Source: Actinomycetota bacterium | GTDB lineage: Bacteria > Actinomycetota > UBA4738 > HRBIN12 | Assembly (NCBI GenBank): GCA_005885035.1 | Contig: VAXZ01000111.1 | Span: 1,603 to 65,602 of the forward strand | Direction of reading: 5' to 3' | Length of the DNA: 64,000 nucleotides | In this document: piece after piece, positions 1,029-20,199 of the stretch | Layout of the letters: every line of letters begins with the position of its first letter | How positions within the stretch are numbered: the first letter of the stretch is position 1 | Notes under the pieces: model-generated | What the model saw: the letters and a program-made list of their open reading frames with translations, nothing else | Told to the model about the DNA's origin: nothing | The model's database searches: none | Program-made: the position numbers and the translations under genes

Positions 1029-1030
1029 CG

Positions 1031-2239
1031 ATGCGGAGGGTCGTCTACGCGCTGTCGCTGGTCCTGATCTTCACGATCCCCTGGGAAGGAGCGCTGCAAT
1101 CGGGGCTGGGAACCATCGCGACGGTCATGGGGATCGTGGTGACGGTGCTCTGGGTCGCGCTGATCGCGATGACCGGGCAGATGCGCCGGCCGATCACTTT
1201 CCTCTACGTGACCTGCATCTTCGTGTTCTGGATCGGGCTCACGGCCTTCTGGAGCGCCGATCCCGTCAACAGCATGAGTGCCGTCCTTCGATGGATCGAG
1301 TCCCTCGTTTTCACCTTCACGCTGTGGGACCTCTACCGGACCCGAACGGAAGTCCTGATGGGCCTCCAGGCATACGTGCTCGGCTCCTACGTGGCCATCG
1401 CGGGAGCGTTCGCGAACTACCTCGGTTCGCACGCCTTCTACACCCACTACGAGCGCTTCAGTCCCGGCAACACCAATCCGGACGGGTACGGTTTCACGGT
1501 CGCCCTTGGTGTCCCGATCGCCTGCTACCTCGCTGCGGCTCCCGAGACCTCGAGACGAGCCCGGGCGATCAACCTTGCGTACCTCCCGGTGGGCTTCGTT
1601 GGCATCGCGCTGTCGGGGACCCGGACCGCGTCGGTGGCGGCAGCGGTCGGTCTGCTGTTCGGCCTCGCCCTGCTCACCCGACTGAAACTATCCACGCGGG
1701 TCGCGGTCGTGGCGCTCCTGGCGTCGACGATGCTCGTGGTGTTGCCGATCGTTCAACCGTTGAAGTCGTTCCAGCGGCTCGGGACGACCGGAACCGACCT
1801 CAGCCAAGGCAACCTGAACGGCAGGACCGCGCAATGGGCTCAAGGCTTCGTCGCCCTCTCCGATCATCCGTTCTTCGGCGTGGGCACCGACCAATACCGT
1901 TCCGTGAACACCCTCGACAAGGTGGCCCACAACTCCTACCTGTCGGTCATGGTCGAGCTCGGTTTGGTTGGCTTCGCGATGTTCGCCTCGATCCTGTGGA
2001 TCGCTTTCCGATACGCCTTGATCCAGCCGAAGTGGGACAGGAGGTTCTGGGTCACCCTCCTCACGGTTTGGGCGATCGGCGCTTCCACGCTGTCCTATGA
2101 ACATCGGAAGACGACATGGCTCGTCCTGACGCTGTGCGTGGCAGCCGGGTCGATCGTCCGTGAACCCGCACCGCCGGCACGTGAGGAACCCGACACGGTC
2201 GCGTCGGTCCCGGTTGGCGTCCTGGGCCGGTCCGGATGA
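1031..2239 (+). CDS. O-antigen ligase / Wzy-like polymerase family membrane protein
   Basis: ATG at 1031 (aa 229 of ORF 347..2239; upstream part is out-of-frame read-through over the GT). Multi-TM protein with FFGVGTDQYRSVNTLDKVAHNSYLSVMVELGLVGF (Wzy_C/O-antigen ligase signature). ATGA overlap with the next gene. Confidence 0.7.
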   Translation: MRRVVYALSLVLIFTIPWEGALQSGLGTIATVMGIVVTVLWVALIAMTGQMRRPITFLYVTCIFVFWIGLTAFWSADPVNSMSAVLRWIESLVFTFTLWDLYRTRTEVLMGLQAYVLGSYVAIAGAFANYLGSHAFYTHYERFSPGNTNPDGYGFTVALGVPIACYLAAAPETSRRARAINLAYLPVGFVGIALSGTRTASVAAAVGLLFGLALLTRLKLSTRVAVVALLASTMLVVLPIVQPLKSFQRLGTTGTDLSQGNLNGRTAQWAQGFVALSDHPFFGVGTDQYRSVNTLDKVAHNSYLSVMVELGLVGFAMFASILWIAFRYALIQPKWDRRFWVTLLTVWAIGASTLSYEHRKTTWLVLTLCVAAGSIVREPAPPAREEPDTVASVPVGVLGRSG

Positions 2240-3102
2240 CCCTTCCGACGTTCGTTGGGATCGGGGTTCCGCGCGCCGGGACGACCTGGCTGCACACGCT
2301 GCTATCCGGGCATCCGGACGCGTACCTCCCCACACGGCGGAAAGAAGTGCGGTTCTTCGACCGCCACTTCGACCGAGGGGTCGAATGGTACGAGGGGTTC
2401 TTCTCTCCTCCGGAGGGAGCTGGCGGATACCGAGCGATCGGCGAGATCTCTCCTCAGTACCTCTACGGCCAAGAGTGCCCGACGAGGATCGCGACGGTGC
2501 TGCCGTCCGCGAAGCTCCTCGTGATGCTGCGGCATCCGGTCGACCGGGCGTACTCCCAGTACGGGTTCCTCTTGCAACGGCGCAACTACCGGGGGTCGTT
2601 CGAAGAGTTCCTGAGGGCCAGACCGCGAGCCCTCGAGATGGGCTATTACAGCCGCCATCTGCGGAGGTACCTCGATCGCTTCGATCGGGGACAGATCCTG
2701 CCCATCGTCTTCGAGGAAGCCGTCCGCGGCGGCGAGACGGTCCGTCGCGATCTGGCCGGCTTCCTCGGCATCTCCGAAGGTGCGTTCCCGGCGGCGATCG
2801 ACCGCGTGAACGCGAGCTCCATGCCCAAGTACCCACGGATCGCGAACCTCGCCGTCAGGACCGGCCGACGCCTCAGGAGGCGGCACCTGGAATCGATCGT
2901 CGATCTGGGAGGTCGATTGGGTGTTCGCCGGTTCATGACGAGCGGCACGCAGGTTCCGAGATTGGATACTGACCTCAGGAGCGAGCTCGGCCGGCGGTAC
3001 GTGGATGAGTTCGATGCGCTGGAAGGGATGCTGGGCATCGATCTGAGCTGTTGGAAGGATCGGCCGGCGAAACGGAGGACGGGCGATGCCGCGCCGGTCT
3101 AG
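2236..3102 (+). CDS. PAPS-dependent sulfotransferase (P-loop sulfotransferase fold)
   Basis: 5'-PSB motif VPRAGTTWLH and 3'-PB motif RHPVDRAYSQY. 288 aa. Confidence 0.8.
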   Translation: MTLPTFVGIGVPRAGTTWLHTLLSGHPDAYLPTRRKEVRFFDRHFDRGVEWYEGFFSPPEGAGGYRAIGEISPQYLYGQECPTRIATVLPSAKLLVMLRHPVDRAYSQYGFLLQRRNYRGSFEEFLRARPRALEMGYYSRHLRRYLDRFDRGQILPIVFEEAVRGGETVRRDLAGFLGISEGAFPAAIDRVNASSMPKYPRIANLAVRTGRRLRRRHLESIVDLGGRLGVRRFMTSGTQVPRLDTDLRSELGRRYVDEFDALEGMLGIDLSCWKDRPAKRRTGDAAPV

Positions 3103-4324
3103 GACACGACCGAACGGGGATCGGTCGCTCGACGTGTTGATCGTGTCCCAGCCCGCCGACTACGGTGTCGCGATCTACGTCCGGGAGCTGGCCCGATCGG
3201 CCGTGGAGGCCGGGCACGATGTGACCGTGATCAGCCCCCCGGAGTCGCGAGGGCCCTTGGCCAGCTGGGTCACGAGCGTCGGAGCCCGGCATCACACACT
3301 CGACATGGCCCGCAGGCCCGCCCTCCGTGATCCCTTCGACGTCTTGACCCTCCGCCGTCTCGCGCGAGGGCGCGACGTCCTGCACGTGCATTCGTCCAAG
3401 GCGGCCGCGCTCGGGCGCGTCGCGGCAGCGACCCTGCCGCGACGAGCCCGACCCGCGGTCGTGATGACTCCCCACTACTGGTCGTGGCTCGTCGGCGGGC
3501 GGCTTGAGGCCCTCTACCGGTGGATCGAGCGGCTGCTTGCTCGCCGCTGCGACGTGATCGTCGCCGTCTCCGAACGGGAAGAGGTGGAAGGTCGCTCGGT
3601 GCTGGGCGCGGACGCCCGACTGCTGTTGATACCGAACGGCGTCGATCGAGCACACTTCTCCCCTGAGGGACCGTCTGCGGAACGAGACGTCGGCCATCCC
3701 CTGATCGCCTGCGTGGGAAGGCTGAGCGAGCAGAAGGGTCAGGACGTCGCGATCCGCGCGCTCGCGCTGCTGAGCGATCGCACGTCGAGGCTCCGCCTCG
3801 TCGGGGGGGAGAGCACCCCGGGGCACCGCAGGCAGTTGGAGGAGCTCGCCAACTCGCTCGGCGTCGCGGAGCGGATCGAGTGGCGCGGTCCCGTGGACGA
3901 CACCGCCCCCGAGTACCGCGCCGCCGACGTGGTCATCGCGCCGTCCCGGTGGGAAGGCATGTCGCTCGCGTCGCTGGAGGCATTGTCGTGCGGTTCGGCG
4001 ATGGTCGCCACCGATGTGTCCGGGAGCGAAGCCCTCGGGTCCGCAGCCGTGATCGTGCCTCGAGACGATCCCGATGGGCTGGCCGGAGCCATCGACAGGC
4101 TCCTTCGCGATCCGGAGAAGCGGCGAGCGCTCGGGCTTGCGGCGAGAGCCCAGAGCCGGCCGTTCGACGTGTCCGCGACGATGCGTCGGAACCTCGATCT
4201 GTGGACCGAGCTCGTGCATGGAGGAGCCTGGCAAAGGAGTCAGGAGGACGGCTCGGGAGCGGTCGGGTCGGCCGTGCCCGGGACGCCTTCCGCTGCAACA
4301 GGGACGTGGACGACGGATGCGTGA
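3086..4324 (+). CDS. Glycosyltransferase family 4
   Basis: SRWEGMSLASLEALSCGSAMVATDVSGS and GRLSEQKG motifs. 412 aa. Overlaps the flanking genes. Confidence 0.85.
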   Translation: MPRRSRTRPNGDRSLDVLIVSQPADYGVAIYVRELARSAVEAGHDVTVISPPESRGPLASWVTSVGARHHTLDMARRPALRDPFDVLTLRRLARGRDVLHVHSSKAAALGRVAAATLPRRARPAVVMTPHYWSWLVGGRLEALYRWIERLLARRCDVIVAVSEREEVEGRSVLGADARLLLIPNGVDRAHFSPEGPSAERDVGHPLIACVGRLSEQKGQDVAIRALALLSDRTSRLRLVGGESTPGHRRQLEELANSLGVAERIEWRGPVDDTAPEYRAADVVIAPSRWEGMSLASLEALSCGSAMVATDVSGSEALGSAAVIVPRDDPDGLAGAIDRLLRDPEKRRALGLAARAQSRPFDVSATMRRNLDLWTELVHGGAWQRSQEDGSGAVGSAVPGTPSAATGTWTTDA

Positions 4325-5138
4325 CGCCTCCGACGACACGCTCCCGCCCGTCCGGTACGTGAGCATGCCCGGGAGCCCCTACACGGGTTCCACACTCTTG
4401 GGGATGCTGATGGCCAATCACCCTGCTTGTACCTCGATCGGCGCGGCGACGGGTCTCACGGCCAAGGTGGATCTGGACACCTACCTGTGCTCGTGCGGCC
4501 TGCTGTTCACCGAGTGCTGCTTCTGGCATCGCATCGCCCGACGGACGGAGGAGCTCGGGTATCCGGTGACCGTGTTCAAGACGAACTTCTGGAACACACA
4601 TGTCCGGGTCTCGGGACGCCGATGGCTCAACGGGGTCGTCGTGAGCTCGCTCGGGAACCCCTCGTTGACGGCCATCCGCGACGCGACGGTCGGCAGGACC
4701 CCTCCGGTTCGCCGGCGCGTCTCGGAGGCGAGGGCAACCACGTGGAGCCTGGCTCGGTCGATCCTGGAGGAGACGGGCAGGAGCGTGTTCGTGGACACGG
4801 CGCGTGATCATCAACGTCCGCGCTACCTCGCAGGTGCACCTGGCCTGCGGCTCAAGGTCATCCATCTGGTCCGCGATCCGCGCGGCAACGTCGCCAGCAT
4901 CATGAAGCACACCGGCGTCGACGTCGGGCACGCGGCTCGCCAGTGGCGCCACTACAACGTGGAGGCCGATCGCGTCGGTCGCTCGTTCCCACGCGGAGCG
5001 TGGATGCGGCTGCATTACGAGGAGCTGTGCTCGCAACCGCAAGAGACACTGGAGCGCGTCGCGATGTTCATCGGGGTGGAGCCCATCCCGGTGTCCGATC
5101 ACCTGCAGCCATCCGAGCATCATGTGATCGGCAACTGA
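4317..5138 (+). CDS. Sulfotransferase (P-loop fold)
   Basis: ATG at 4317 (aa 82 of ORF 4074..5138), overlapping the GT stop by 8 nt. SMPGSPYTGSTLLG (PSB-like loop) and KVIHLVRDPRGNVAS (3'-PB-like RDPR). Confidence 0.7.
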   Translation: MRDASDDTLPPVRYVSMPGSPYTGSTLLGMLMANHPACTSIGAATGLTAKVDLDTYLCSCGLLFTECCFWHRIARRTEELGYPVTVFKTNFWNTHVRVSGRRWLNGVVVSSLGNPSLTAIRDATVGRTPPVRRRVSEARATTWSLARSILEETGRSVFVDTARDHQRPRYLAGAPGLRLKVIHLVRDPRGNVASIMKHTGVDVGHAARQWRHYNVEADRVGRSFPRGAWMRLHYEELCSQPQETLERVAMFIGVEPIPVSDHLQPSEHHVIGN

Positions 5139-5150
5139 CCTCGGGTACGA

Positions 5151-6008
5151 GTGGCCATGAGCGACTCTCGCCGGCTGCTCGTGTTCGTCCACATCAACAA
5201 GACGGCTGGAACGACCGTGCGATACATCCTGCGCAGCTCGTACGGGGCTCGGCATTGCGACGTGGAGCCGTGGCACGGCGCCTGGACTGACCCCCCGTTC
5301 TCGACCCCCGACCTGCAGCGCGTCCGTCGGCTCTACCCGAGGCTCACCAGCATCGCCGGCCACCGCGTGAGCGGATACATCGACCTGGAGGAGCCCGGGA
5401 CCGAGTTCAGGTACCTGACCTTCCTCCGCGAACCGATCGCCCTCTGTGCTTCTCGCTTCCAATATCGCCTCGACCACCGGAAGAGGACCGATCTTTCCTT
5501 CGAGGCATGGATCCAGAAGGACTGGGTTCGCAACGCCCAGACGCAGCGGATCGGCGGTACGGCGGATGCGAACGAGGCGATCTCGGTGATCTCCCGGAAA
5601 GAGATGTTCGTCGGCGTCACCGAGGCGTTCGACCGCTCCATCGTCTTGCTGCGCGCCCTCCGCGCACCTGACCTCGACATCCGCTACGCGCCGGTGAACG
5701 TCGCCAAGAGCTCGCGCATCGCGAAGGATCTTCTGGACGATCCTCGCACCCGGGCGATGATCGTGGAGGCGAACCAGGCCGATCTCGAGCTCTACCGGCA
5801 CGTGAAGGAGGAGCTCTTCCCGGCGATGGAGCGCGGATACGGTCCTTCGCTCGCCGATTCCGTCGCAGCGTTCCGTGACGGTCAGGCGAAGCGATTCAAC
5901 CGGCGGCATCTGGCCATGTACGGGCTCAAGCAGCGCTTGGTGCTCCAGCCGGCTATGAAGCTCTACCGACGGTCGAGCAGGCACGACGTCGTCGACGTGC
6001 CTCATTGA
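5151..6008 (+). CDS. Sulfotransferase, Sulfotransfer_2-like (HS2ST/Gal3ST-type)
   Basis: N-terminal FVHINKTAGTT resembles the FVHIPKTGGT 5'-PSB of Sulfotransfer_2 enzymes. 285 aa. Starts 13 nt after the previous gene. Confidence 0.6.
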   Translation: MAMSDSRRLLVFVHINKTAGTTVRYILRSSYGARHCDVEPWHGAWTDPPFSTPDLQRVRRLYPRLTSIAGHRVSGYIDLEEPGTEFRYLTFLREPIALCASRFQYRLDHRKRTDLSFEAWIQKDWVRNAQTQRIGGTADANEAISVISRKEMFVGVTEAFDRSIVLLRALRAPDLDIRYAPVNVAKSSRIAKDLLDDPRTRAMIVEANQADLELYRHVKEELFPAMERGYGPSLADSVAAFRDGQAKRFNRRHLAMYGLKQRLVLQPAMKLYRRSSRHDVVDVPH

Positions 6009-6308
6009 GCATCAGGGACCGGACCCTCAACGATCCAGCCGAAGGCTGAGGTCCCTGCCGATGAGCTCCGCGGTCTTGCCGATGCCGTCTCGGAAGCGCT
6101 CGCGCAACTCCGTCGCGAGCTTCCTCGGGCGATCGGGGCGCGCGACGCAGGTTCCCGCGTCCGTGTTCGTCGCGCCCAGTCCCCCGCTCGCTTCGGGATC
6201 CACGGATCGACCTCTCTCCCGAGCGAGTCGTTCGTGAAGACGCGCTCGAGCAGCATGGGGCCGTCGTCCCCGCCTTCGCCGCGCCGACGACGATGAGATC
6301 GGGAAGCG

Positions 6309-7769
6309 TCACGGTGCGCTCGGATCGGACCCGTCGATCGCTTCCCGGATCGCGTCCTTGATCTCGATCACGACGCTCTCGAACGCTCGGTCGGTATCGA
6401 TGCGATGGACCACCGAACCATCGAATCGGAGATCGGCGCTGATCGCATGCCGCAGCCGCACGTAGCCTTCGGGCTCCCGCTTCTGTCGGTGAGCGTTCCG
6501 AGCGAGCGTGACCTCGAGCGGGGCCGTGAGATGGAACACGATGTCGGGAGCGGGGATGTCCCGATACAGCCGACCTTCGAGCGCAGCCAAGACGCGGCGA
6601 GCCGACGGACGACCGGAGCGCAGGGGGAGATGCCCGAGCTGCGGCCCGTCCGGAGCACCCCCCGTTCCCGAGGGGTACCGATCACTCAGGACGATCGTTC
6701 CGCCAGGGGACCGCTCGAGGGCTCCGAGGATCAGCGCCCGTCGCTCGTACGCCAGCATGATGGAGCGGAACGCGAACAGGAGCGGGTAGCCCCCTCGCGT
6801 CGGAGGATCCTCCTCCATCTTGGCTTCGACCCGAAGAAGTCGCTGCTCGGGGAACAGGGTCCGGAACGCGGGCAGCAGGACATGGGGGAGGAAGGTGAGC
6901 CACGTGCTCGGCGGCTTCCCCGCGTGGATCCGCCGGACCTGATGGTCCCGACCGAGCCAAGCCTCGACCTCGTTCAGGATCGTGGACTTGCCACTCGCCT
7001 CGGACCCCACGAACGCGATCGATCGGACGGGGATCTGCGGCGTCTCGCCGCCGGCTCCGCCCAAGCCGACGAGGACCTGGTGCACCACATCCTCGAATCC
7101 CTCGCGGGAGTCGTCGGTGATCTCGGCGATCAGGAGTCGTTCGCGGATCGCTTCCCTCACCGCCAGGCGTTCGAAGAGCTCCACGGCACGCGCGAGCCTG
7201 CCCGCGACCTGGTTGCGGCTCCGTCCGGCCAGCTCACGGCGCGGATCTGGACGTCTCATCGCACGTTCCACCAGCAGATCGAGCGGAGCCCTCACGTAGA
7301 CGATGCGGTCGGGCATGGGAACCAGGCGAGCGAAGCGGTCCAGATCGACGTCCCCGTACGGAGCATCGCTGTACACGAATAGTTGGTACGCCGAGAGGAG
7401 GACCCCTTCGTCGACCAGAACCGTCCTCCGGTCGGACGCGCGGCGAGCCAACTCGTGCACGCCAACCTTCCGGACGATGTTCAGCCGGTAGTTGTACTTC
7501 GCGAACGTGGATGGCGCGTAGCGCCGGAGTCGGTCGAACGCGAAGCGGACGAACTCCCCATCCCGCCTATACGCTCGGACGAACGACGGGAACGAGATCA
7601 CGTCCGCCGCGAGATTGATCGTGCTGGGATCGGTTATCCACCGCAGGCCCGCACGGTCGCGCACCAGATCGACGGACAGGATCGCGCGAGAGCCGTTGCT
7701 CCGCCGACGAACCTCCTTCGCGAGGCTCGTCTTCCCCGCTCCGCTGCACCCGATGAACTCAACGATCAT
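6309..7769 (-). CDS. Tandem double P-loop NTPase/kinase-like protein, function unknown
   Basis: Two Walker A motifs (FIGCSGAGKTS and FVGSEASGKST), each followed by similar downstream blocks (DEGVLLSAYQLF). Likely start is M34 (MIVEF) at 7769, which forms an ATGA overlap with the stop of the upstream GT gene. ORF track start is 7868. Confidence 0.55.
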   Translation of the reverse strand: MIVEFIGCSGAGKTSLAKEVRRRSNGSRAILSVDLVRDRAGLRWITDPSTINLAADVISFPSFVRAYRRDGEFVRFAFDRLRRYAPSTFAKYNYRLNIVRKVGVHELARRASDRRTVLVDEGVLLSAYQLFVYSDAPYGDVDLDRFARLVPMPDRIVYVRAPLDLLVERAMRRPDPRRELAGRSRNQVAGRLARAVELFERLAVREAIRERLLIAEITDDSREGFEDVVHQVLVGLGGAGGETPQIPVRSIAFVGSEASGKSTILNEVEAWLGRDHQVRRIHAGKPPSTWLTFLPHVLLPAFRTLFPEQRLLRVEAKMEEDPPTRGGYPLLFAFRSIMLAYERRALILGALERSPGGTIVLSDRYPSGTGGAPDGPQLGHLPLRSGRPSARRVLAALEGRLYRDIPAPDIVFHLTAPLEVTLARNAHRQKREPEGYVRLRHAISADLRFDGSVVHRIDTDRAFESVVIEIKDAIREAIDGSDPSAP

Positions 7770-8929
7770 CGGTGGGGCACCGCCGGTCGTGCCGTCTCCA
7801 GATACACGGCATCGGTGGCCGTACGCATGACGGGCAACGTGAAACGCGCGCTCACGTGCGCTCGGCACAGGCGACCGATCTCGCGCCGCTCGTCGGACGA
7901 CATCGCTCGGTAACGCCTGATCTGCATCGCGAACCCTTCGACGTCACCCGGCCGGACGAACGGGATGAACCCGGCGTCTTCGGCGATCTCTCGGTGGGGC
8001 GGGATGTCGGACAGGATGACCGGGCATCCGGCAGCCATCGCCTCCAGGACGGCCACCGGCAGACCCTCGCCGTTCGAGGTGGAGACGAAGACGTCGGCTT
8101 CGGCGCACGCGACGAACACCTCTTCTCGGGGGATGAGGCCTCGCAACGTGACGCGGTCCCGAAGGCCCGCGCGGTCGATCCGGGCTTCCAGCTCCGTTCC
8201 GAGCCGTCCCCCACCGATGAAGACGAGTCGACCGCCGTCGTCGCGGTCCACGCTGCTTGCGAACGCGTCGAGCATGACGAACGGGTCCTTCACGACATCG
8301 AGACGACCTACGGACAGGACGGTGAAGCGCCCATCCTCCCTGCCGACCGGGGCGGCAGCGACGGCGCGGTCGACCCGGTCGATGTCAGCTCCGTTCTGGA
8401 CGACCCGCCAACGATCGCGTACGAGCCATTTCAGCGCCCGCGGCAGGCTCTCGTACGCCGACCGGCTGCAGAAGATCACGCGATGGAAGGTCGCGAGGGG
8501 GACGACCATCAACGCCTTGTCCCGAAGCCGGTAATCGTAGAACGAATCCTGGACGGTGTAGACCAGCGAACGCCGGAGCCGGCGCGATCGGCGCCGGGCG
8601 AGCACCGCGAGCAGCAACAGGACGCCCGACTGCGGGGCGTGAGCATGGATGACGTCGTAGTCATCGGCATCCAGCGCGCGCCCCAAACTTCGGAAGAACC
8701 CTCTCAGCGTTCCGTCACCAGCGAACATCGTGATCTCCGAAGGTGGGGTCAATCGCGGCACGAAGTAGGTGCTGATCGAGAGATCGCGCTCTCCGATCAA
8801 CGGGAGACAGTGCTCGTTGTACTGCCCGTTGGTCTCGCCGAGCATCAGGATCAGGTGCAAGACCTTGAGCCTTCGCACGGCGGCATCCTGCGTGCCGGTC
8901 GGGACGGGTCGGCCCTCGCTATCGAGCAT
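7766..8929 (-). CDS. Glycosyltransferase family 4
   Basis: GEGLPVAVLEAMAAGCPVILSDIPPHREI; GT-B fold. 387 aa. Confidence 0.85.
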   Translation of the reverse strand: MLDSEGRPVPTGTQDAAVRRLKVLHLILMLGETNGQYNEHCLPLIGERDLSISTYFVPRLTPPSEITMFAGDGTLRGFFRSLGRALDADDYDVIHAHAPQSGVLLLLAVLARRRSRRLRRSLVYTVQDSFYDYRLRDKALMVVPLATFHRVIFCSRSAYESLPRALKWLVRDRWRVVQNGADIDRVDRAVAAAPVGREDGRFTVLSVGRLDVVKDPFVMLDAFASSVDRDDGGRLVFIGGGRLGTELEARIDRAGLRDRVTLRGLIPREEVFVACAEADVFVSTSNGEGLPVAVLEAMAAGCPVILSDIPPHREIAEDAGFIPFVRPGDVEGFAMQIRRYRAMSSDERREIGRLCRAHVSARFTLPVMRTATDAVYLETARPAVPHR

Positions 8930-9716
8930 GTGTTGTCAAGCGGGGCCGGAGCTCCGTCGCGAGCAGGTCGGCCGTGGCTCCCTCGGTATCGAGGCGAAAT
9001 ACCTCCGGTGCCCCCCAGGCCTCGATGCGACGGAGCACCGCGTCGAACGATCGGCGGTACGTGTCGAGGAACCGGTAGCCCTCCTCGACCCCCTCGCCCT
9101 TCGTCCTGTGGAGCTGAGAACGCCCGTTGATCCTCCGCCACAGAACATCGTCGGGTGCATCCAGCCAGACGATCGCGCTGAGCTCTCGAACCCATAACCG
9201 AAGCATGTCCTCCCACCACGCATCGAAGGCGGGCGTGGCCGTGAACGGCTTCCCTTCAGCCTTCAGACGAACGAGGGCGTAGATCGGCCCCTGATCGAGC
9301 ACGGTGACGCCGCCGCGGCGGCGCATCTCACGTCGGAGGACGGTCCGCCACCGCGTCACGTACACCAAGAGCTTGAACTCCGGCCACGTCATCCGAGGCG
9401 GTCGGCGGTCGGTCGCGAGGATCGGCAGCAGGCGCGGGGTCGCCGTCGCGACCCGGAGGAGGTGGGATGGCAGCCGCGTGTGGATGAAACCGCCCACGGC
9501 GAACTCGGAGTCCTCGCACATTGACCGCGTGAGGGTGGACTTCCCGGAACCCGCCACGCCTGCGACTTCGACCAGGCGTGGCTTCGGCAGCGTCGGAAGG
9601 CGGGACCAGCGACGATGATCGATGGTGGTGCCCACGATGCCGTCGAAACCTCCCTTTCGGCCGAGATGCTCGTGCTTCGATGGGAAACGGTACGCGGGCA
9701 CCTCGCTTGCGGCCAT
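8919..9716 (-). CDS. P-loop NTPase/kinase-like protein, single-module paralogue of 6309..7769
   Basis: Walker A VAGVAGSGKSTL. LDQGPIYALVRL and WLDAPDDVLWRRI blocks resemble each half of the tandem protein. Confidence 0.5.
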   Translation of the reverse strand: MAASEVPAYRFPSKHEHLGRKGGFDGIVGTTIDHRRWSRLPTLPKPRLVEVAGVAGSGKSTLTRSMCEDSEFAVGGFIHTRLPSHLLRVATATPRLLPILATDRRPPRMTWPEFKLLVYVTRWRTVLRREMRRRGGVTVLDQGPIYALVRLKAEGKPFTATPAFDAWWEDMLRLWVRELSAIVWLDAPDDVLWRRINGRSQLHRTKGEGVEEGYRFLDTYRRSFDAVLRRIEAWGAPEVFRLDTEGATADLLATELRPRLTTHAR

Positions 9717-9821
9717 CTGATGAACGCCGTACCTGGGCTACGGTCCGCGGTGCAGGGCGGATCATGCCGCCCTCGTCGACGCGCAAGAAGCGGCCAGCCG
9801 AGGGCGCGAACGTAGCCTCGG

Positions 9822-9839
9822 TACATCGGTTGCGTGATG
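9822..9839 (+). promoter_or_regulatory. Shared 18-nt motif TACAYCGGTTGCGTGATG, copy 1, in a divergent intergenic region
   Basis: 17/18 identity with 12393..12410. Lies between the divergent genes 8919..9716(-) and 10060..11439(+). Confidence 0.4.
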
Positions 9840-10059
9840 GGAACGCCGCACGCACCAGCGTCGCTCGCGTCTTAGGCGCGTCCTGAAAGAAAGATGGTGG
9901 CCGACGGGTCGCATCGGCTCGGTACGTTTCTTACGGCGAAACGCGCATGCGCTGGAAGGGACCGGACCGCCACACTCGGTTCTCCAGACCGCGGAGGGGC
10001 GAATGGAGAGCGCGATCACCGGGACCGTGCTTCGTGCACCGTGCGGCGGAGCCTAGAGG

Positions 10060-11439
10060 ATGGCTGTTCGCGAACCCCTCGTGGTTCTCCCCACGCCTCG
10101 CGTGTTGCGGTTCCGCCCTCCTCTTTCGAGTCTCATCCCCGTCACGGACGCGCTTGCCCTCGGGATCGTGTACGTCCTCGTGGGGTTCCACCCCGTCGCG
10201 ATCGTGTTCGCCGTGCTCACGTTCCTGATCCTCAACAGCGACTCATCTCGGATCTTCCGGGTCAACCCCCGTCTCGGCGACGACGCAGCCTGGTTGCTGG
10301 GTCGCGTGGCCGTCTCCCTCCTGTTGCTGATGTCGGTGGTGGCGGTCGCCAAGCTCCCGCTCGACATCCGCGCGCACCTGAGCAACCTCACGGTGATCGC
10401 GCCACTCTCCGCGATCGCCGTGATCATCGGCCGGGCGGCCGCGTACGCGTTGGGTCGGGCGGCGAAAGGTCGAGGCGTCGCCTCCGAGCGAACCCTGATC
10501 GTCGGAGAAGGCGAACTGGCGATCGGGCTCGCGAAGACCCTGCTGGACCATCAGGAGTTCGGGTTGCGGCCCGTCGGGTTCCTGGGCCGATCGCAGGATG
10601 GGTCCGCGGTCCTCCCCTTCCTCGGTGAGTGCGCGGAACTCGATCACGTCGTTCACCAGCATTCGGTGAGTCGAGTGCTCATCGCATTCGGCGATACCGA
10701 CGACAAGGATCTCGCGACCGTCCTTCGCGCCAGCGAGCGGACGCCCGCGGAGATCCACGTCGTTCCGCGATTCTTCGAACTGAGCGGGATCCCCCAGGGG
10801 GCCGCCGTTGACGACGTCTGCGGCATCCCGCTGTTCCACCTCCGCCGGCCGGCGCTCCGTGCGGCGGCACGGGTGGAGAAGCGGGCCTTCGACCTCGTTG
10901 GATCCACGCTCCTGCTCCTGCTCACCGCGCCGCTCCTCGCGATCGCCGCCCTCGCCGTCCGCTTGTCGAGCCCGGGTCCGATCCTGTTCCGGCAGAAGCG
11001 GGTCGGCCTCAACGGTCAGGTCTTCGAGATCGTCAAGTTCCGGACGATGCGCGAGAATGACGACTCCGACACGGCATGGTTCTCGGGCGACGACGATCGG
11101 GTGACCAGAGCCGGGCGCATCCTCCGGATGACGAGCATCGATGAGCTGCCGCAGCTGTTGAACGTGCTTCGGGGAGAGATGTCACTCGTCGGTCCCCGAC
11201 CGGAGCGACCCCACTACACGGACCAGTTCGCGGCCACCGTGTCCCGCTACGACGACCGACACCGGGTGCTCGGTGGGATCACCGGGTGGGCACAGATCCA
11301 TGGTCGATCGCGTGGCTTGGACGCCGTGCCGGAACGCGCACGCCTGGACAACTACTACATCGAGAACTGGTCGGTCTGGCGGGACCTCGTGATCATCGTC
11401 CGGACGGTCGCCGTGCTGCTGCGCGGCGACGACGGCTAA
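10060..11439 (+). CDS. Polyprenyl-phosphate glycosyl-1-phosphate transferase (WbaP/exopolysaccharide 'sugar transferase' family)
   Basis: N-terminal TM region. C-terminal catalytic domain with KRAFDLVGS...[19 protein letters not shown]...[24 protein letters not shown]. Confidence 0.9.
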
Positions 11440-12095
11440 GCGGTCGGCGTTCCGTCCGAGGAGAGGTAGCCAAGGCCTCTCAACGCTTCATCGATCCGGC
11501 AGGACCCGAACTCCGTGACGAGGCGCCGGAGGTCGCGCCGCGTCCGACCTCGCCCCGTGTAGGCGCGGAACCGGAGGGTCCTCGGCATGCCCGCGGGGGG
11601 GATCTCGTCCGGGTCCAGCTCCCAGGGGTGGAAATAGAACGTGAACCATGGGTTGGAGCGCAGGTGCTTCGCTACGCCCCAACGGAACACCGGATAGGGG
11701 ATCAAGCGGAAGTACGCGCCGCCGGCCCACGGGACGTGGATCGTCGCGATCGGGACGCGGGTCATCTGGATCTCCAACAGGCCGGGCCGGATCTCCGTGA
11801 CGGTCGCCCCTGGTGGGACCGTTGCCGAGATCTGCCCGTACCGATCGTGTTGCGTGAATCCGAAGTAACTGGAGTCGTACCGGTATCCGGCCTCAGCGAC
11901 CAGATCAAGGACGAGATCGCTCACGGAGAAGTTGGGTGCACGGACACCGAGAACCTCGGAGCCCGCTACCTGTTCGAGGCGGTCCTTCGACCGGCCGAGC
12001 TCCTCCTTGATCTCATCGGGGGTCAGCTGGTTCAGGTTCCGGTGCAGATAGGTATGACTGGCGATCTCGTGTCCATCGTCCACGATCCGCTGCAC
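11436..12095 (-). CDS. Polysaccharide deacetylase (NodB, EPS/PEP-CTERM-locus subtype), N-terminally disrupted
   Basis: HEIASHTYLH (NodB motif 2). The frame stays open upstream to 12266 and encodes DWFHAENV..TFFVLGWVAERYP, but it is closed by an in-frame TAG at 12267..12269 with no start codon. First usable start is GTG at 12095. Confidence 0.6.
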   Translation of the reverse strand: MQRIVDDGHEIASHTYLHRNLNQLTPDEIKEELGRSKDRLEQVAGSEVLGVRAPNFSVSDLVLDLVAEAGYRYDSSYFGFTQHDRYGQISATVPPGATVTEIRPGLLEIQMTRVPIATIHVPWAGGAYFRLIPYPVFRWGVAKHLRSNPWFTFYFHPWELDPDEIPPAGMPRTLRFRAYTGRGRTRRDLRRLVTEFGSCRIDEALRGLGYLSSDGTPTA

Positions 12096-12392
12096 GACCG
12101 CGGGGTAGCGTTCCGCGACCCACCCGAGGACGAAGAACGTCGATCGGACCCGGGCGGCTGCAAGGATATCCAGGAGCTCGTGAACGTTCGGTTCGAGCCT
12201 CGACTCCAGCCGGTCCCAATCATGCGTTGGCAGGCTCGCCCGGACGTTCTCGGCGTGGAACCAGTCCTAGCCTAGGGGACCCCTGGTTCGATGCCACCCG
12301 CGTCCACCATGCTCGAGTTCAAGCCGATGGACGGGGGGTTCAAGGGCGAAACGTGGCCTGCTGACCTGCCCCGCGAGATCGCGTACGTCGTC

Positions 12393-12410
12393 TACACCGG
12401 TTGCGTGATG
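12393..12410 (+). promoter_or_regulatory. Shared 18-nt motif TACAYCGGTTGCGTGATG, copy 2
   Basis: Lies between the divergent deacetylase gene (-) and the metallophosphoesterase gene (+). Confidence 0.4.
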
Positions 12411-12568
12411 TCGCACCTACGGTCTCGGACCTAGGGTGCAGTGAACGATCGCGCGCCGCCGCGCGAGCTTCCCTTGCGTCTGCACCCTTGAGTGGCGGCG
12501 AGACATGGGGGAGTCGTCGTGGAGCAGCCATCAGGAGCCAAGTGGGTCTCAACCTGTTGGGACGCATC

Positions 12569-13868
12569 ATGATCGTGTCACCGCGGAAGCCGCTCGAATG
12601 GGTGGTTGTCTTCTCATTGCTCGTGGCCGCAACCGTCCTGGTTCCCGTCACCGCCGAGGCCTCCAGCAACTGCGGCACCTCGAGCGGCCACAACCTTTGC
12701 CTCTCGGCTGCTGACACCCTGACCGGTGAACAGACCGTCACCGTCACGAACTCGCCCAACAACGGCGTCGTGTTCGCGACGTGGGTCCCGTCGGGCGGGA
12801 AAGCCCTGCAACTCATAGAGATCGATGCGCCCTCCCCGGCCACGACCGACTATTCCTTCGTGTGGCCGACCCAGAAATACCTGGACGGCTCGGGCACCCT
12901 GTCCCTACAGGCAGGTTCGATCGGCTCGGCGGCCGTCATGATCGCCGTCACCCTGAGCAATGGCAACACAACGGACTTCCAACACAGCCCGAAGGACTGG
13001 ATGAACTCCCTACCCGGATCGTGGACGGGGCCGGAGGATCCGACGATCCTCGCGGTCGGGGACGGCCCGTCGAACGAGGTGACGTCCAACGCCGTCGCCA
13101 GCCGGATCGCCGCACTCGATCCACCGTTGTTCCTGTTCCTCGGCGATGTCTATGAGACGGGCACGTTTACAGAGTTCCGGAACCATTACGGGGCTTCTGA
13201 GCTCGACACGCCTGGGGCGGGGACGCTCTGGGGAGAGACCGCCGACATCACGCAGCCCACCCTCGGGAATCACGAGAAGCCCAACTCAGCGGCCTTCATC
13301 GACTACTGGCACGGGAGGCCGCTCTTCACGAGCTTCACGTTCGGCGGGACCCTGTTCCTTGACATGAACTCAAGCGCGTCGATGAGCGCGACCAGCGCGC
13401 AGTACCAGTTCGTCAAGAGCGCGGTCACCAACCCTTCAGCCCCGAACTGCATCGTCGCCTTCTGGCATATCCCCGCCGTTGTAACGAACACGTCGGTGAC
13501 GGCCGGTCAGACAGCCATGTGGGCGCTGCTCGCGAACAACGGCGTCGATCTACTGGTGACCGGGCACCAGCACAAGATGGTGGAGTTCAACCCGCTCGAC
13601 GCCGATCTCAACCCCACGCCGCAGGCCCACCTGGTGCAGCTGGTCTCCGGAGCGGGGGGGCACAAGCTCGCCGGGCCGACCTCCGTCGGAGCACGCGTCG
13701 CGTGGTCGAAGGGGGGCACGGCGGGATTGCTCTCGCTGTCGCTCGCCGGAGCAGCCGGGGGGAACGCTGCAACGAGTATCGGCTGGCAGTTCCAGACCGT
13801 AAGCGGGAGCGATCTCCATGATGGATCGGTCGACTGTGGCTCCGTCGCGAACCACGCCCCGGTCGTGA
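12569..13868 (+). CDS. Secreted calcineurin-like metallophosphoesterase (3' end frameshifted)
   Basis: ATG at 12569 (aa 57 of ORF 12401..14590) followed by a signal peptide MIVSPRKPLEWVVVFSLLVAATVLVPVTAEA. Phosphoesterase motifs LFLGDVYETG, TLGNHE and VTGHQHK. The rest of the ORF track's 729-aa read-through is low-complexity Arg/Gly out-of-frame sequence. Confidence 0.7.
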
Positions 13869-13892
13869 ACTCCGAGCTCCCCCACGACGTCC

Positions 13893-14525
13893 GTGTCCTT
13901 CGACACCGCCGGGACGTACGTCCTGCGGCTCACCGGAGACGACAGCGCGCTCCAGTCCTCGGACGACGTCACGGTGACGGTGTTACCGGAAGGGGTGGCC
14001 ACGCTCACGGTGCCCATCGGCGCGAGTTCGGACGACGCCGAAGAGTCATCCGTCGACGGATCGGTCGCGCTGGGGAACCCAGCCCTCAAGATCGTGAACC
14101 GCGCCGGTGTGAACCAGACCGTGGGGCTACGGTTCGCCGGATTGTCGATCCCGCAGGGCGCGACCATCCAGAATGCCTACATCCAGTTCCAGTGCAGGGT
14201 GCAGACCACCGCGGCTGCGTCGCTCTTGATCGAGGGGCAGGCAGCGGACAACCCAAGTACGTTCGCGAGGATCACGAACAACATCTCCTCCCGTGCTCGA
14301 ACGTCGGCCGACGTCGGGTGGGTCCCGGCGCCGTGGGGAACGGTCGGAGCACAGGGTCCCGATCAACAGACGCCGGATCTCACCAGCGTCATGCAAGAGA
14401 TCGTCAACCGCGGAGGATGGGGCCCCGGCGATCCCATGGTCTTCATCATCACCGGCACGGGAGTCCGCACGGCGGAAGCCTTCGACGGCCTGTTCGCGCC
14501 CGTCCTTCACGTGACGTACGCGTAG
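13893..14525 (+). CDS. C-terminal beta-rich domains of the metallophosphoesterase, encoded in the +1 frame
   Basis: Frame opens right after TGA at 13866..13868. SFDTAGTYVLRLTGDDSALQSSDDVTVTV is Ig/PKD-like, followed by a domain with IPQGATIQNAYIQFQ. Confidence 0.5.
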   Translation: MSFDTAGTYVLRLTGDDSALQSSDDVTVTVLPEGVATLTVPIGASSDDAEESSVDGSVALGNPALKIVNRAGVNQTVGLRFAGLSIPQGATIQNAYIQFQCRVQTTAAASLLIEGQAADNPSTFARITNNISSRARTSADVGWVPAPWGTVGAQGPDQQTPDLTSVMQEIVNRGGWGPGDPMVFIITGTGVRTAEAFDGLFAPVLHVTYA

Positions 14526-14586
14526 GTCCGCGGACGGGCATCGCCTCGTTCCGGCGTTGCCGGTTGGCACTCGCCTGGCTATCCTG

Positions 14587-14613
14587 TTAGCACTCAAGGC
14601 CTAGGAGTGCTAA
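14587..14613 (+). promoter_or_regulatory. CIRCE operator (HrcA-binding inverted repeat) upstream of groES
   Basis: TTAGCACTC-AAGGCCTAG-GAGTGCTAA is a perfect 9-N9-9 match to the CIRCE consensus, 53 nt upstream of groES. Confidence 0.9.
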
Positions 14614-19662: not shown

Positions 19663-20061
19663 TCAGACGATCGGTTTCTCGACGCCGGCTCGAGCGATCC
19701 CGGACACGAGCCCCGCGACGAGCACGATGTTGGTGACGGCGAAGATCCACCAGAACCACGCTGCCGACCCAGCCGGCACCGAGACCATCGCGTGCAGCGT
19801 GGTCACGAGCGCCGTCAGGCCCGACTCGAGGACGAACGCCCACGACCACCACCACGCGTCGTCCAGCCGGCGCGAGATCATCAGCGCCAGCGCCGCCGAG
19901 GACAGGCCGGCGATGCCGCAGACCCGAACGTACGTGTAGTCGGGGTAGGGCACCTGATCGAACCAGGTGACCAGGATCCATCGCGGGCTAACCGCGATCG
20001 CGGTTCCGCACACTCCCCAGACGGCAGCGAACAGCAGAAGCGCGCGTCGCAGGAACGCCAT
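19663..20061 (-). CDS. Small integral membrane protein (132 aa), first gene of the ABC-2 exporter operon
   Basis: MAFLRRALLLFAAVWG...; 4 predicted TM segments. The ORF track's 595-aa extension is antisense to the AlkP gene. Confidence 0.5.
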   Translation of the reverse strand: MAFLRRALLLFAAVWGVCGTAIAVSPRWILVTWFDQVPYPDYTYVRVCGIAGLSSAALALMISRRLDDAWWWSWAFVLESGLTALVTTLHAMVSVPAGSAAWFWWIFAVTNIVLVAGLVSGIARAGVEKPIV

Positions 20062-20199
20062 CCCGGGCCCTTCCTCCTTGCTCGGGCCCGAAGCGGCCCA
20101 AAGTCGCTGGTAGGATACGCGAACCGCGGATGGCTCCTGTCGCACGAGCGCGCCCGCCGTCCGCTCATCGGACCGCGGACCGGAGGGGATACGAGCAAC

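What the first reader, a model, noticed from the sequence alone, without database searches (positions are those of the whole stretch)
6309..9716. Unusual P-loop protein family flanking a GT4: a tandem double-P-loop protein and a single-module paralogue
6309..7769 has two Walker A motifs (GCSGAGKTS and GSEASGKST), each followed by similar blocks. 8919..9716 is a single copy of the same module (AGSGKSTL, LDQGPIYALVRL, WLDAPDD). They are translationally coupled to a GT4 inside a glycan locus. Classic Walker A loops (GxxGKS/T) fit small-molecule kinases such as APS, gluconate or shikimate kinase, not canonical sulfotransferases. They could therefore phosphorylate the glycan or a sugar precursor, or act as a dedicated nucleotide/PAPS-handling module. 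I do not recognise them as a described family, and the tandem architecture is distinctive.
Basis: partly seen in the sequence, partly recalled or inferred. Interest (0 to 1): 0.65.

Follow-up and report, generated by a model that had tools for sequence, protein, structure and literature searches.

The report
Uncharacterised kinase-like proteins in polysaccharide locus
Two genes flanking a glycosyltransferase encode three related ATP-binding modules that fold like nucleoside and thymidylate kinases; they belong to an unstudied cassette found only in surface-polysaccharide gene clusters across many bacterial phyla, and what they phosphorylate is unknown.

Summary
A (6309..7769, minus strand) has two Walker A modules and B (8919..9716, minus strand) has one. 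Both overlap the GT4 gene between them, by 4 and 11 nt.

The three modules are homologous over their full length (hhalign E 6e-11 to 2e-5). N and B are deoxynucleoside-kinase-like. C is thymidylate-kinase-like and keeps the DRY motif. P-loop, acidic motif and LID arginines are invariant in all three, so all look catalytically active.

No curated family covers them. Databases call them "hypothetical protein" or, automatically, "thymidylate kinase".

The tandem protein is a derived, Actinomycetota-only fusion. The widespread form is a separate N gene plus a protein joining a Pol-beta-type nucleotidyltransferase domain to C. It occurs in at least seven phyla, always in polysaccharide loci. Two singleton B-like proteins are fused to a Wzx flippase.

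A PAPS or APS-kinase role is unlikely. A canonical APS kinase lies at 21609..22241, and proteobacterial and cyanobacterial loci carry the cassette without sulfotransferases.

Best guess, at moderate confidence: ATP-dependent kinases that act on the lipid-linked repeat unit or a dedicated precursor at the cytoplasmic membrane face. The acceptor is unknown.

The parts
8919..9716 (-). B: single-module P-loop kinase-like protein of the N/B (deoxynucleoside-kinase-like) subtype. Residues 1-41 are poorly conserved and predicted disordered.
   Evidence: ORF. Walker A at 9534..9560, DQGP at 9285..9296, LID 'RINGRSQLHRTKG' at 9096..9134. AF2 pLDDT 79. Foldseek best hits are deoxyadenosine kinase 2jas, dGK 2ocp and human TMPK 1nn5, E ~1e-6. 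1216 representatives at 50% identity at E<=1e-3.
7766..8929 (-). GT4 glycosyltransferase, translationally coupled to B and A. Its orthologue accompanies the modules in most loci.
   Evidence: Pfam Glycos_transf_1 5.5e-26. Overlaps of 11 nt and 4 nt. Orthologues at 42-92% identity lie next to the modules in about two thirds of the related loci, including Methylobacter marinus A45.
6309..7769 (-). A: fusion of an N-type and a C-type P-loop kinase-like module (486 aa).
   Evidence: ORF and start. AF2 model pLDDT 84 with two domains and a low-confidence linker at residues 239-245. 310 homologues. Identical to GenBank TMK19528.1, annotated 'hypothetical protein'.
7056..7769 (-). N-type module of A (residues 1-238): Walker A 7728..7751, DEG 7404..7412, LID 'RAMRRPDPRRE' 7233..7265.
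   Evidence: hhalign to B: 97% probability, E 3e-11. Only P-loop-level sequence matches in the PDB.
6309..7034 (-). C-type module of A (residues 246-486), thymidylate-kinase-like: Walker A 6981..7007, DRY 6675..6683, LID 'RNAHRQKREPE' 6468..6500, invariant IHAGKPP motif.
   Evidence: Profile vs PDB: S. aureus TMK E 1.4e-10, matching the P-loop, DRY and LID segments; M. tuberculosis TMPK E 2.6e-6. Foldseek TMK 4eaq E 8e-7, TM-score relative to target 0.63-0.68. Cross-phylum invariants.
5953..6312 (-). Remnant of the sulfotransferase gene that follows A in relatives. Only the PSB-loop N-terminus and a frame-shifted C-terminal piece remain.
   Evidence: same 300-bp gap in L067/L068.
10060..11439 (+). 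Initiating phosphoglycosyl transferase (Bac_transf) of the same polysaccharide locus (context).
   Evidence: Pfam PF02397 6.5e-66. Conserved position in L001, L002 and L067.
1..6008 (+). Remainder of the locus on the other strand (context): GT4 (cut by the window start, to 1028), Wzy_C (1031..2239), sulfotransferase (2236..3102), GT4 (3086..4324), sulfotransferase (ending at 5138), Gal-3-O-sulfotransferase-like (5151..6008).
21609..22241 (+). Canonical APS kinase (CysC). It is not part of the cassette but bears on its function.

Best explanation
A and B are catalytically competent ATP-dependent phosphotransferases of the nucleoside/nucleotide-monophosphate-kinase fold. The N and B modules are deoxynucleoside-kinase-like; the C module is thymidylate-kinase-like.

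They form part of a conserved accessory cassette of Wzx/Wzy-type surface-polysaccharide loci. The cassette comprises an N-type kinase, a Pol-beta-type nucleotidyltransferase domain and a C-type kinase. In this organism the nucleotidyltransferase sits on a further C-type paralogue, next to wzx, just beyond the window's left end.

The most likely role is to phosphorylate the undecaprenyl-diphosphate-linked repeat unit, or a dedicated precursor of it. This would happen at the cytoplasmic face of the membrane, together with the coupled GT4 and before flipping by Wzx. The nucleotidyltransferase partner may then derivatise the new phosphate.

Shown: the fold, the intact kinase motifs, homology among the three modules, exclusive occurrence in polysaccharide loci, and the gene fusions. 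Inferred: phosphotransfer itself, the identity of the acceptor, and the order of steps.
For: - Fold and motifs. Walker A, the acidic motif after strand 3 (DEG, DQG, DRY) and the LID arginines are invariant in all three modules, within the clade and across phyla.
- Structural and sequence relatives. Foldseek hits are dNK and TMPK structures. The C-type profile hits TMK at 1.4e-10 through P-loop, DRY and LID. A Calothrix N/B-type protein passes the Pfam dNK gathering score, 32.7 against 27 bits.
- Extra invariant residues. Many charged residues outside the ATP site are invariant: IHAGKPP, R98, D129, E153, Y157 and R195 in C; R100, G103 and F146 in N. These point to a specific acceptor site.
- Context. 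Every examined locus is a polysaccharide locus:
  - Actinomycetota.
  - Methylobacter marinus A45: Wzx-Wzy-GT4-N-[NTase+C]-GT4-Wzb-Wza-Wzc.
  - Devosia, Calothrix, Caldilineaceae and a gammaproteobacterial MAG.
  - Six further proteobacterial loci.
- Fusions. N+NTase+C triple fusions exist. B-type modules are fused to the Wzx flippase in both orders: P0361, whose B part is 51% identical to B, and P0434. wzx is directly adjacent to a module gene in L005, L059, L064, L065 and L068.
- Gene neighbours in Proteobacteria. Two methyltransferase genes precede the cassette in Devosia (Pfam-verified). Same-sized genes hold that position in other proteobacterial loci, and the pooled scan finds five methyltransferases. 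This echoes kinase + methyltransferase glycan capping.
- Precedent. PsmK kinase plus the uncharacterised nucleotidyltransferase PsmN put hexose on a phosphate (PMC6993621).
Against: - No biochemical or genetic data exist for any member.
- The closest folds act on nucleosides and nucleotides, not glycans, so a nucleotide-like acceptor is equally compatible with the structures.
- Both Wzx fusions are single-sequence clusters from single contigs and could be gene-calling artefacts.
- The coupled GT4 orthologue and the sulfotransferases are each absent from some loci, so no single partner enzyme fixes the substrate.
- My automated Wzx-adjacency count was noisy because of high-GC spurious ORFs.
Confidence: 0.4

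Rival explanations
1. Nucleoside/nucleotide or nucleotide-sugar kinases. The dNK-like and TMPK-like modules would act in succession (X-OH to X-P to X-PP), as in thymidine salvage, and with the nucleotidyltransferase would make or recycle a special nucleotide-activated donor for the coupled GT4. Examples are rephosphorylating UMP or CMP, or building an NDP-X or phospho-substituent donor.
For: - The best structural and sequence relatives are dNK and TMPK.
- dNK and TMPK catalyse consecutive salvage steps (established knowledge).
- The N-C and N-NTase-C fusions fit a multi-step small-molecule pathway.
- 'Nucleotidyltransferase + P-loop kinase' is the logic of PAPS synthase and CoA synthase (established knowledge).
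Against: - Scores against dTMP kinase and dNK models are far below cut-offs for the window proteins.
- The substrate-side motifs (IHAGKPP, DEG/DQGP) differ from those of nucleotide kinases.
- Fusion to and adjacency with Wzx is hard to explain for a soluble nucleotide-pool enzyme.
- Housekeeping NMP kinases already cover recycling.
Confidence: 0.25
2. Non-kinase ATPases that regulate or energise repeat-unit export, for example cytoplasmic partners of the Wzx flippase or assembly-complex scaffolds.
For: B-type-Wzx fusions in both orientations. Frequent adjacency to wzx.
Against: - The DRY arginine and several LID arginines, typical of phosphoryl transfer to an acceptor, are conserved.
- MOP-family flippases are not known to need ATP (established knowledge).
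- The co-fused catalytic-looking nucleotidyltransferase domain (GxTDLDLLV plus invariant His and Asp residues) argues for chemistry rather than regulation.
Confidence: 0.12
3. APS kinase or PAPS/PAP-handling enzymes that serve the locus's sulfotransferases.
For: Most loci carry several sulfotransferases. In Caldilineaceae locus L065 an ATP sulfurylase gene lies directly upstream of the N-type gene.
Against: - A canonical APS kinase (PF01583, 2.8e-57) lies 12 kb away in the window.
- L030 has Sat + CysC inside the cluster together with the modules.
- No sulfotransferase lies within 10 kb in L053 or L055-L064 (the latter include Methylobacter marinus A45, Devosia sp. Root436 and Calothrix sp. 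NIES-2100).
- The Pfam APS_kinase match covers only the P-loop, at 16 bits against a cut-off of 21.1.
Confidence: 0.05
4. Housekeeping thymidylate kinase, as JGI's automatic annotation says.
For: Weak Pfam and TIGRFAM thymidylate-kinase hits and the DRY motif.
Against: - TIGR00041 scores 21 bits against a cut-off of 83, and PF02223 scores 23.3 against 27.
- Identity to solved TMKs is 16-20%.
- The genes always sit inside polysaccharide loci, fused to other modules.
- The family is rare in databases: about 1200 50%-identity cluster representatives for the B family, 310 hits for A and 362 for NTase+C, mostly from uncultured bacteria.
Confidence: 0.02

Closest known systems
Thymidylate kinase (TMPK; Pfam PF02223, e.g. 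S. aureus TMK 2ccj/4eaq, M. tuberculosis TMPK 1g3u)
   Same: The C-type module shares the fold, the FxGxExxGKST-type P-loop, the DRY motif after strand 3 and the LID segment.
   Different: - 16-20% identity and below family score cut-offs.
- The REPGG substrate motif is replaced by IHAGKPPST plus a conserved hydrophobic, proline-rich helix.
- A conserved GAPDGPQL loop is inserted after DRY.
- It is fused to an N-type module or to a nucleotidyltransferase domain, and is found only in polysaccharide loci.
Deoxynucleoside kinases (dNK/dCK/dGK family; Pfam PF01712, e.g. 2jas, 2ocp)
   Same: B, and by homology the N module, share the fold and the long helical insert between strands 2 and 3. They also share an R-x3-R-type LID. 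A Calothrix N/B-type homologue passes the dNK gathering score.
   Different: The ERS motif is replaced by DEG or DQGP. The window proteins score below the cut-off (18.4 against 27 bits). Context and fusions (Wzx, C-type module) are unlike any dNK.
WbdD-type O-antigen chain terminators (kinase + methyltransferase) and LPS core kinases WaaP/WaaY; LpxK as a P-loop glycolipid kinase
   Same: These are ATP-dependent phosphorylation of a lipid-linked glycan at the cytoplasmic membrane face, which is the proposed mode of action. Methyltransferase genes precede the cassette in Devosia and apparently in other proteobacterial loci.
   Different: WbdD, WaaP and WaaY have the protein-kinase fold, and LpxK is a different P-loop lineage. 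The resemblance is functional and recalled from the literature; no homology was found or tested.
PsmK/PsmN of the pseudomycoidin lasso-peptide cluster (kinase + uncharacterised nucleotidyltransferase)
   Same: A kinase makes a phosphate and an uncharacterised Pol-beta-like nucleotidyltransferase then adds hexose to it (PMC6993621). This parallels the kinase + nucleotidyltransferase pairing of the cassette.
   Different: The substrate is a peptide and the kinase is HPr-kinase-like. Whether PsmN belongs to the same Pfam family (PF14907) as the cassette's nucleotidyltransferase domain was not tested here.

Membership tests
P-loop NMP-kinase-fold phosphotransferases (superfamily level) | Walker A GxxxxGK[ST] at the strand 1-helix 1 junction | tested here: met
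   Present and invariant in all three modules.
P-loop NMP-kinase-fold phosphotransferases (superfamily level) | Five-stranded parallel-sheet core with a LID carrying basic residues; fold match to solved kinases | tested here: met
   AF2 models with pLDDT 79-84. Foldseek probability 1.0 to TMPK and dNK chains, TM-score relative to target 0.6-0.68. LID arginines invariant.
P-loop NMP-kinase-fold phosphotransferases (superfamily level) | Actual phosphoryl transfer from ATP to an acceptor | not testable with these tools
   Requires an enzyme assay.
Thymidylate kinase (PF02223 / TIGR00041) | Score at or above the curated family cut-off | tested here: not met
   PF02223 23.3 bits against 27; TIGR00041 21.2 against 83.25.
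Thymidylate kinase (PF02223 / TIGR00041) | DRY/DRH motif after strand 3 | tested here: met
   D363-R364-Y365 is invariant and aligns with the DRY of S. aureus TMK. This applies to the C module only.
Thymidylate kinase (PF02223 / TIGR00041) | dTMP-binding motif (R-E-P-G-G-T region) and dTMP kinase activity | tested here: not met
   The motif is replaced by the invariant I-H-A-G-K-P-P-S-T. That comparison uses the canonical motif as I recall it. Activity is not testable here.
Deoxynucleoside kinase (PF01712) | Score at or above the cut-off; E-R-S motif | tested here: not met
   B scores 18.4 bits against 27. The motif is DQGP in B and DEG in N. One Calothrix homologue does reach 32.7 bits.
APS kinase (PF01583) | Full-length match above the cut-off | tested here: not met
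   16.0 bits against 21.1, P-loop residues 34-57 only. The genuine CysC in the same window scores 193.5 bits.
PAPS-dependent sulfotransferases (PF00685/PF13469/PF06990) | 5'-PSB loop ([KR]xGT[TS]) and 3'-PB motif; detectable homology to sulfotransferase profiles | tested here: not met
   No Pfam hit. hhalign against four sulfotransferase families from these loci gives at most 3% probability. The loop is a true Walker A.
The cassette itself (N-type + Pol-beta-type NTase domain + C-type, in polysaccharide loci); not a named family | Presence of all three components in the locus | tested here: met
   N and C are fused in A. The NTase + C2 protein (520 aa, weak PF14907 hit) lies next to wzx in contigs carrying the identical A protein (L068; L005). 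It lies outside the window.

The most novel reading that the evidence does not exclude
The cassette (dNK-like kinase, Pol-beta-type nucleotidyltransferase, TMPK-like kinase, sometimes fused to Wzx) is a previously unrecognised glycan-modification pathway spread across many phyla. Two successive ATP-dependent phosphorylations and a nucleotidyl or phospho-substituent transfer would build a (pyro)phosphate-linked decoration on the lipid-linked repeat unit just before flipping. That would make it a third route to phosphorylated or phosphodiester-decorated polysaccharides, beside protein-kinase-fold glycan kinases and CDP-alcohol/LicD-type transferases.
Probability: 0.2. Interest if true: 0.75.

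Novelty: new variant of a known kind. Interest (0 to 1): 0.55.

Why it matters
- **Scale.** About a thousand 50%-identity clusters of these proteins exist, spread over at least seven phyla. They include cultivable Methylobacter, Devosia and Calothrix. All are labelled hypothetical or mislabelled 'thymidylate kinase'.
- **Chemistry.** They sit in the core of Wzx/Wzy polysaccharide loci, so they probably set a chemical feature of the polymer, such as charge or a phosphate-linked substituent. That feature would be invisible to current locus-based structure prediction.
- **Host locus.** The locus is also a candidate sulfated-EPS cluster in an uncultured soil actinobacterium. Sulfated EPS was until recently thought to be restricted to cyanobacteria among bacteria (PMC13390465).
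- **Payoff.** Identifying the acceptor would correct thousands of annotations and could reveal a new kind of glycan kinase.

Tried and rejected
1. **Family libraries.** Pfam and NCBIfam scans of A, B and the Methylobacter homologues gave only generic AAA_18/AAA_33 hits and sub-threshold dTMP-kinase and dNK hits.
2. **Sequence search of the PDB.** The whole-protein profiles found only P-loop-level matches. Only the cross-phylum C-module profile gave a real TMK hit, and the N-type profile stayed at P-loop level.
4. **APS-kinase idea.** Rejected after finding canonical CysC in the window and Sat + CysC in L030.
5. **'Disguised sulfotransferase' idea.** Rejected by hhalign.
6. **Literature.** Searches for PF14907, thymidylate kinase-like + polysaccharide, sulfated EPS clusters and P-loop kinase + Wzx found nothing on this family. 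The kinase WpsI in the Actinoplanes wps-1 cluster is protein-kinase-like and unrelated.
7. **Automated neighbour counts.** The iterative-HMM counts of sulfotransferase and Wzx neighbours were contaminated by overlapping spurious ORFs in high-GC loci. I use them only qualitatively and rely on Pfam-verified cases.
8. **P0387.** This 'B + unknown' 509-aa protein is a frameshift read-through into the GT4 gene, not a true fusion.


Full report
**1. Observation**

Three overlapping genes lie on the minus strand.
- B is 8919..9716 (265 aa).
- A GT4 glycosyltransferase is 7766..8929 (387 aa; Glycos_transf_1 5.5e-26).
- A is 6309..7769 (486 aa).

B's stop overlaps the GT4 start by 11 nt, and the GT4 stop overlaps A's ATG by 4 nt. 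A longer GTG-initiated ORF reaches 7868, but 56 homologues align from MIVEF, so 7769 is the likely start.

A carries GCSGAGKT (7728..7751) and GSEASGKST (6981..7007). B carries GVAGSGKST (9534..9560).

**2. Are the modules related?**

Pairwise BLAST sees little beyond the P-loop and one 82-residue stretch. Profile-profile comparison with cross-phylum alignments gives clear, nearly full-length homology:

| Pair | Probability | E-value | Columns |
|---|---|---|---|
| N vs B | 97% | 3e-11 | 197 |
| N vs C | 97% | 6e-11 | 212 |
| C vs B | 79% | 2e-5 | 188 |

N and B form one subtype. After strand 3 they carry D-E-G and D-Q-G-P respectively. C is a second subtype with D-R-Y.

**3. Fold and catalytic motifs**

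AlphaFold2 models are confident. A has pLDDT 84, with two domains joined by a low-confidence linker at residues 239-245. B has pLDDT 79, with residues 1-41 disordered.

Foldseek against the PDB gives these best matches:
- For A: thymidylate kinases, such as S. aureus TMK 4eaq (E 8e-7, TM-score relative to target 0.63-0.68).
- For B: deoxyadenosine kinase, deoxyguanosine kinase and human TMPK (E ~1e-6).

A cross-phylum profile of the C module hits S. aureus TMK at E 1.4e-10 through three segments: P-loop, DRY and LID. It hits M. tuberculosis TMPK at 2.6e-6. The N-type profile finds only P-loop-level matches. One Calothrix N/B-type homologue passes Pfam's dNK threshold.

Walker A, the acidic motif and the LID arginines are invariant in all three modules. 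So are further charged residues outside the ATP site, for example IHAGKPP, R98, D129, E153, Y157 and R195 in C. All three modules therefore look like active enzymes with a defined acceptor site. This is an inference.

**4. No curated family**

All Pfam and NCBIfam matches are generic (AAA_18, AAA_33) or below cut-offs:
- PF02223: 23.3 against 27 bits.
- TIGR00041: 21 against 83 bits.
- dNK: 18.4 against 27 bits.
- APS_kinase: 16 against 21.1 bits, P-loop only.

A and B are identical to GenBank MAG proteins TMK19528.1 and TMK19526.1, both annotated 'hypothetical protein'. JGI auto-names homologues 'thymidylate kinase'. RefSeq calls the Methylobacter homologue 'nucleoside/nucleotide kinase family protein'. 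Literature searches found nothing on the family.

**5. Context in this organism**

Within the window the locus holds:
- a phosphoglycosyl transferase (10060..11439);
- a polysaccharide deacetylase;
- B, the GT4 and A;
- a degraded sulfotransferase and three intact sulfotransferases;
- two more GT4 genes and a Wzy_C gene.

Contigs that carry the identical A protein show what lies beyond the window's left end. There is a Wzx flippase, then a 520-aa protein with a weak PF14907 nucleotidyltransferase hit and a further C-type P-loop module, then a Wzz/BY-kinase. The same arrangement appears in the 91%-identical relative L005. The locus is thus a complete Wzx/Wzy-type, probably sulfated, EPS cluster. 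It carries four paralogous kinase-like modules and one nucleotidyltransferase domain.

**6. The wider family**

A scan of GTDB species representatives gave 59 loci. Full-length N-C fusions occur only in an Actinomycetota clade.

Elsewhere the layout is a separate N-type gene followed by a protein of about 490-510 aa: a Pol-beta-type nucleotidyltransferase (NTase) domain plus the C-type module. This form occurs in Chloroflexota, Acidobacteriota, Gemmatimonadota, Planctomycetota, Cyanobacteria, Alpha- and Gammaproteobacteria and other Actinomycetota. Triple fusions N-NTase-C of 742-810 aa also exist.

The NTase domain keeps a GxTDLDLLV motif and invariant His and Asp residues, so it looks catalytic. 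The window's tandem protein is therefore a derived fusion that lost the middle domain.

The B family alone has 1216 representatives at 50% identity at E<=1e-3 among 1.84 billion.

**7. What the cassette travels with**

Every locus examined is a polysaccharide locus.
- Methylobacter marinus A45: GalE, UDP-xylose synthase-like, Wzx, Wzy, the orthologous GT4 (42% identity), N, NTase+C, GT4, Wzb, Wza, Wzc.
- Devosia sp. Root436: CapD-like dehydratase, two methyltransferases, N, NTase+C, Wzx, aminotransferase, GT4.
- Calothrix sp. NIES-2100: two NTase+C paralogues, an N/B-type gene, Wzx, Wzy and GTs.
- Caldilineaceae: Wzy, sulfotransferase, PK-like + ATP sulfurylase, N, a Wzx-like gene, NTase+C, GT4.
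- Six further proteobacterial loci gave nucleotide-sugar enzymes, GT4s, methyltransferases, deacetylases, PGT, Wzy and Wza, but no sulfotransferase among the top families.

Sulfotransferases are present in most Actinomycetota, Chloroflexota, Acidobacteriota and Gemmatimonadota loci. They were not found within 10 kb in L053 or L055-L064 (used qualitatively only). The orthologous GT4 is present in about two thirds of loci.

Two B-type proteins are fused to a MOP/Wzx flippase, in opposite orders. P0361 is Polysacc_synt_3 followed by a B part 51% identical to the window's B. P0434 is a B-type module followed by Polysacc_synt. Both are singletons, so they count as suggestive only.

**8. Mechanism**

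*Shown.* These are NMP-kinase-fold proteins with intact catalytic motifs. Their occurrence is restricted to polysaccharide loci. They are fused with one another, with a nucleotidyltransferase domain and, rarely, with Wzx.

*Inferred.* They transfer phosphate from ATP to the lipid-linked repeat unit, or to a dedicated precursor, at the cytoplasmic face of the membrane. They would work with the coupled GT4 and before Wzx flipping. The nucleotidyltransferase may then derivatise the phosphate. A precedent for this last step is the PsmK/PsmN pair in pseudomycoidin (PMC6993621). I put this reading at about 0.4.

*Main rival (0.25).* A nucleoside- or nucleotide-like acceptor is handled in a dNK-then-TMPK-like two-step pathway that makes or recycles an activated donor. 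This fits the fold data better but fits the Wzx link worse.

*Other rivals.*
- A regulatory or energising ATPase role: about 0.12.
It is now unlikely. A canonical APS kinase (PF01583, 2.8e-57) sits at 21609..22241. L030 has Sat + CysC inside the cluster alongside the modules. The cassette also exists without sulfotransferases.
- A disguised sulfotransferase is excluded as far as sequence can tell.
- Housekeeping thymidylate kinase is excluded by scores, motifs and context.

**9. Novelty and verdict**

The fold and chemistry class are known. The family, its three-part cassette and its strict link with Wzx/Wzy polysaccharide loci are, as far as I could find, undescribed. I rate it a new variant of a known kind, with interest 0.55.

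It is a solid lead that cultivable hosts make testable, but nothing here shows the mechanism to be strange. The most novel reading still open is a new (pyro)phosphate-decoration pathway acting on lipid-linked repeat units. I give it a probability of about 0.2.

Noticed in passing
window 5953..6312 (-), with ORF 6002..6256 (-): This is a remnant of the sulfotransferase gene that follows A in relatives (294 aa in L005 9713-10597). The PSB-loop N-terminus 'MTLPDLIVVGAAKAGTT' is joined, out of frame, to the C-terminal '...MLLERVFTNDSLGREVDPWIPKR'. That implies an internal deletion of about 620 bp. The same 300-bp gap occurs in contigs L067 and L068.
   Followed up: partly
window 12268/12269; deacetylase ORF 11436..12095 (-): Relative to the otherwise 99.8%-identical MAG contig L067, 126 bp are missing here. 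The loss removes the first 24 codons of the polysaccharide deacetylase/DUF3473 gene (301 aa in L067). The window ORF is only 219 aa and its Pfam domain starts at profile position 52. This may be strain variation, a pseudogene or an assembly difference.
   Followed up: partly
window 19792..22241 (+): A canonical APS kinase (21609..22241, PF01583 2.8e-57) overlaps, stop to start, a type I phosphodiesterase/nucleotide pyrophosphatase gene (19792..21612). This is an unusual pairing that might link PAPS supply to nucleotide turnover. No ATP sulfurylase turned up in the parts of the window I scanned.
   Followed up: no
window 1..12100, plus L067/L068 beyond the left end: The whole locus looks like a Wzx/Wzy-dependent sulfated exopolysaccharide cluster, with three intact sulfotransferases of different families, in an uncultured soil Actinomycetota MAG. 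A 2026 paper (PMC13390465) states that bacterial sulfated polysaccharides had so far been known only from cyanobacteria. Related clusters occur in Chloroflexota, Acidobacteriota and Gemmatimonadota MAGs.
   Followed up: partly
L065 5522-7747; also L002 14279-15331, L045 and L051: A pyruvate-kinase-barrel-like domain (PF00224) is fused to PUA_2 + ATP sulfurylase, or stands alone, inside several of these sulfated-EPS clusters. I do not recognise this architecture and its role is unexplained.
   Followed up: no
L059 6838-8408; similarly placed genes in L056, L060, L061 and L063: In Devosia two SAM-dependent methyltransferase genes lie immediately upstream of the N-type gene and the NTase+C gene (Pfam). 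In other alpha- and gammaproteobacterial loci genes of the same size hold that position, and the pooled scan of those loci finds five methyltransferases. The arrangement recalls the kinase + methyltransferase logic of WbdD O-antigen capping.
   Followed up: partly
window 12401..14590 (+): A large secreted-looking metallophosphoesterase (PF00149; the L067 copy also has a PKD-like domain) lies between the EPS locus and groES/groEL. A counterpart with CBM96 and Big domains flanks the cluster in L002. It may be a polymer-processing phosphoesterase, which would be relevant if the EPS carries phosphodiesters.
   Followed up: no
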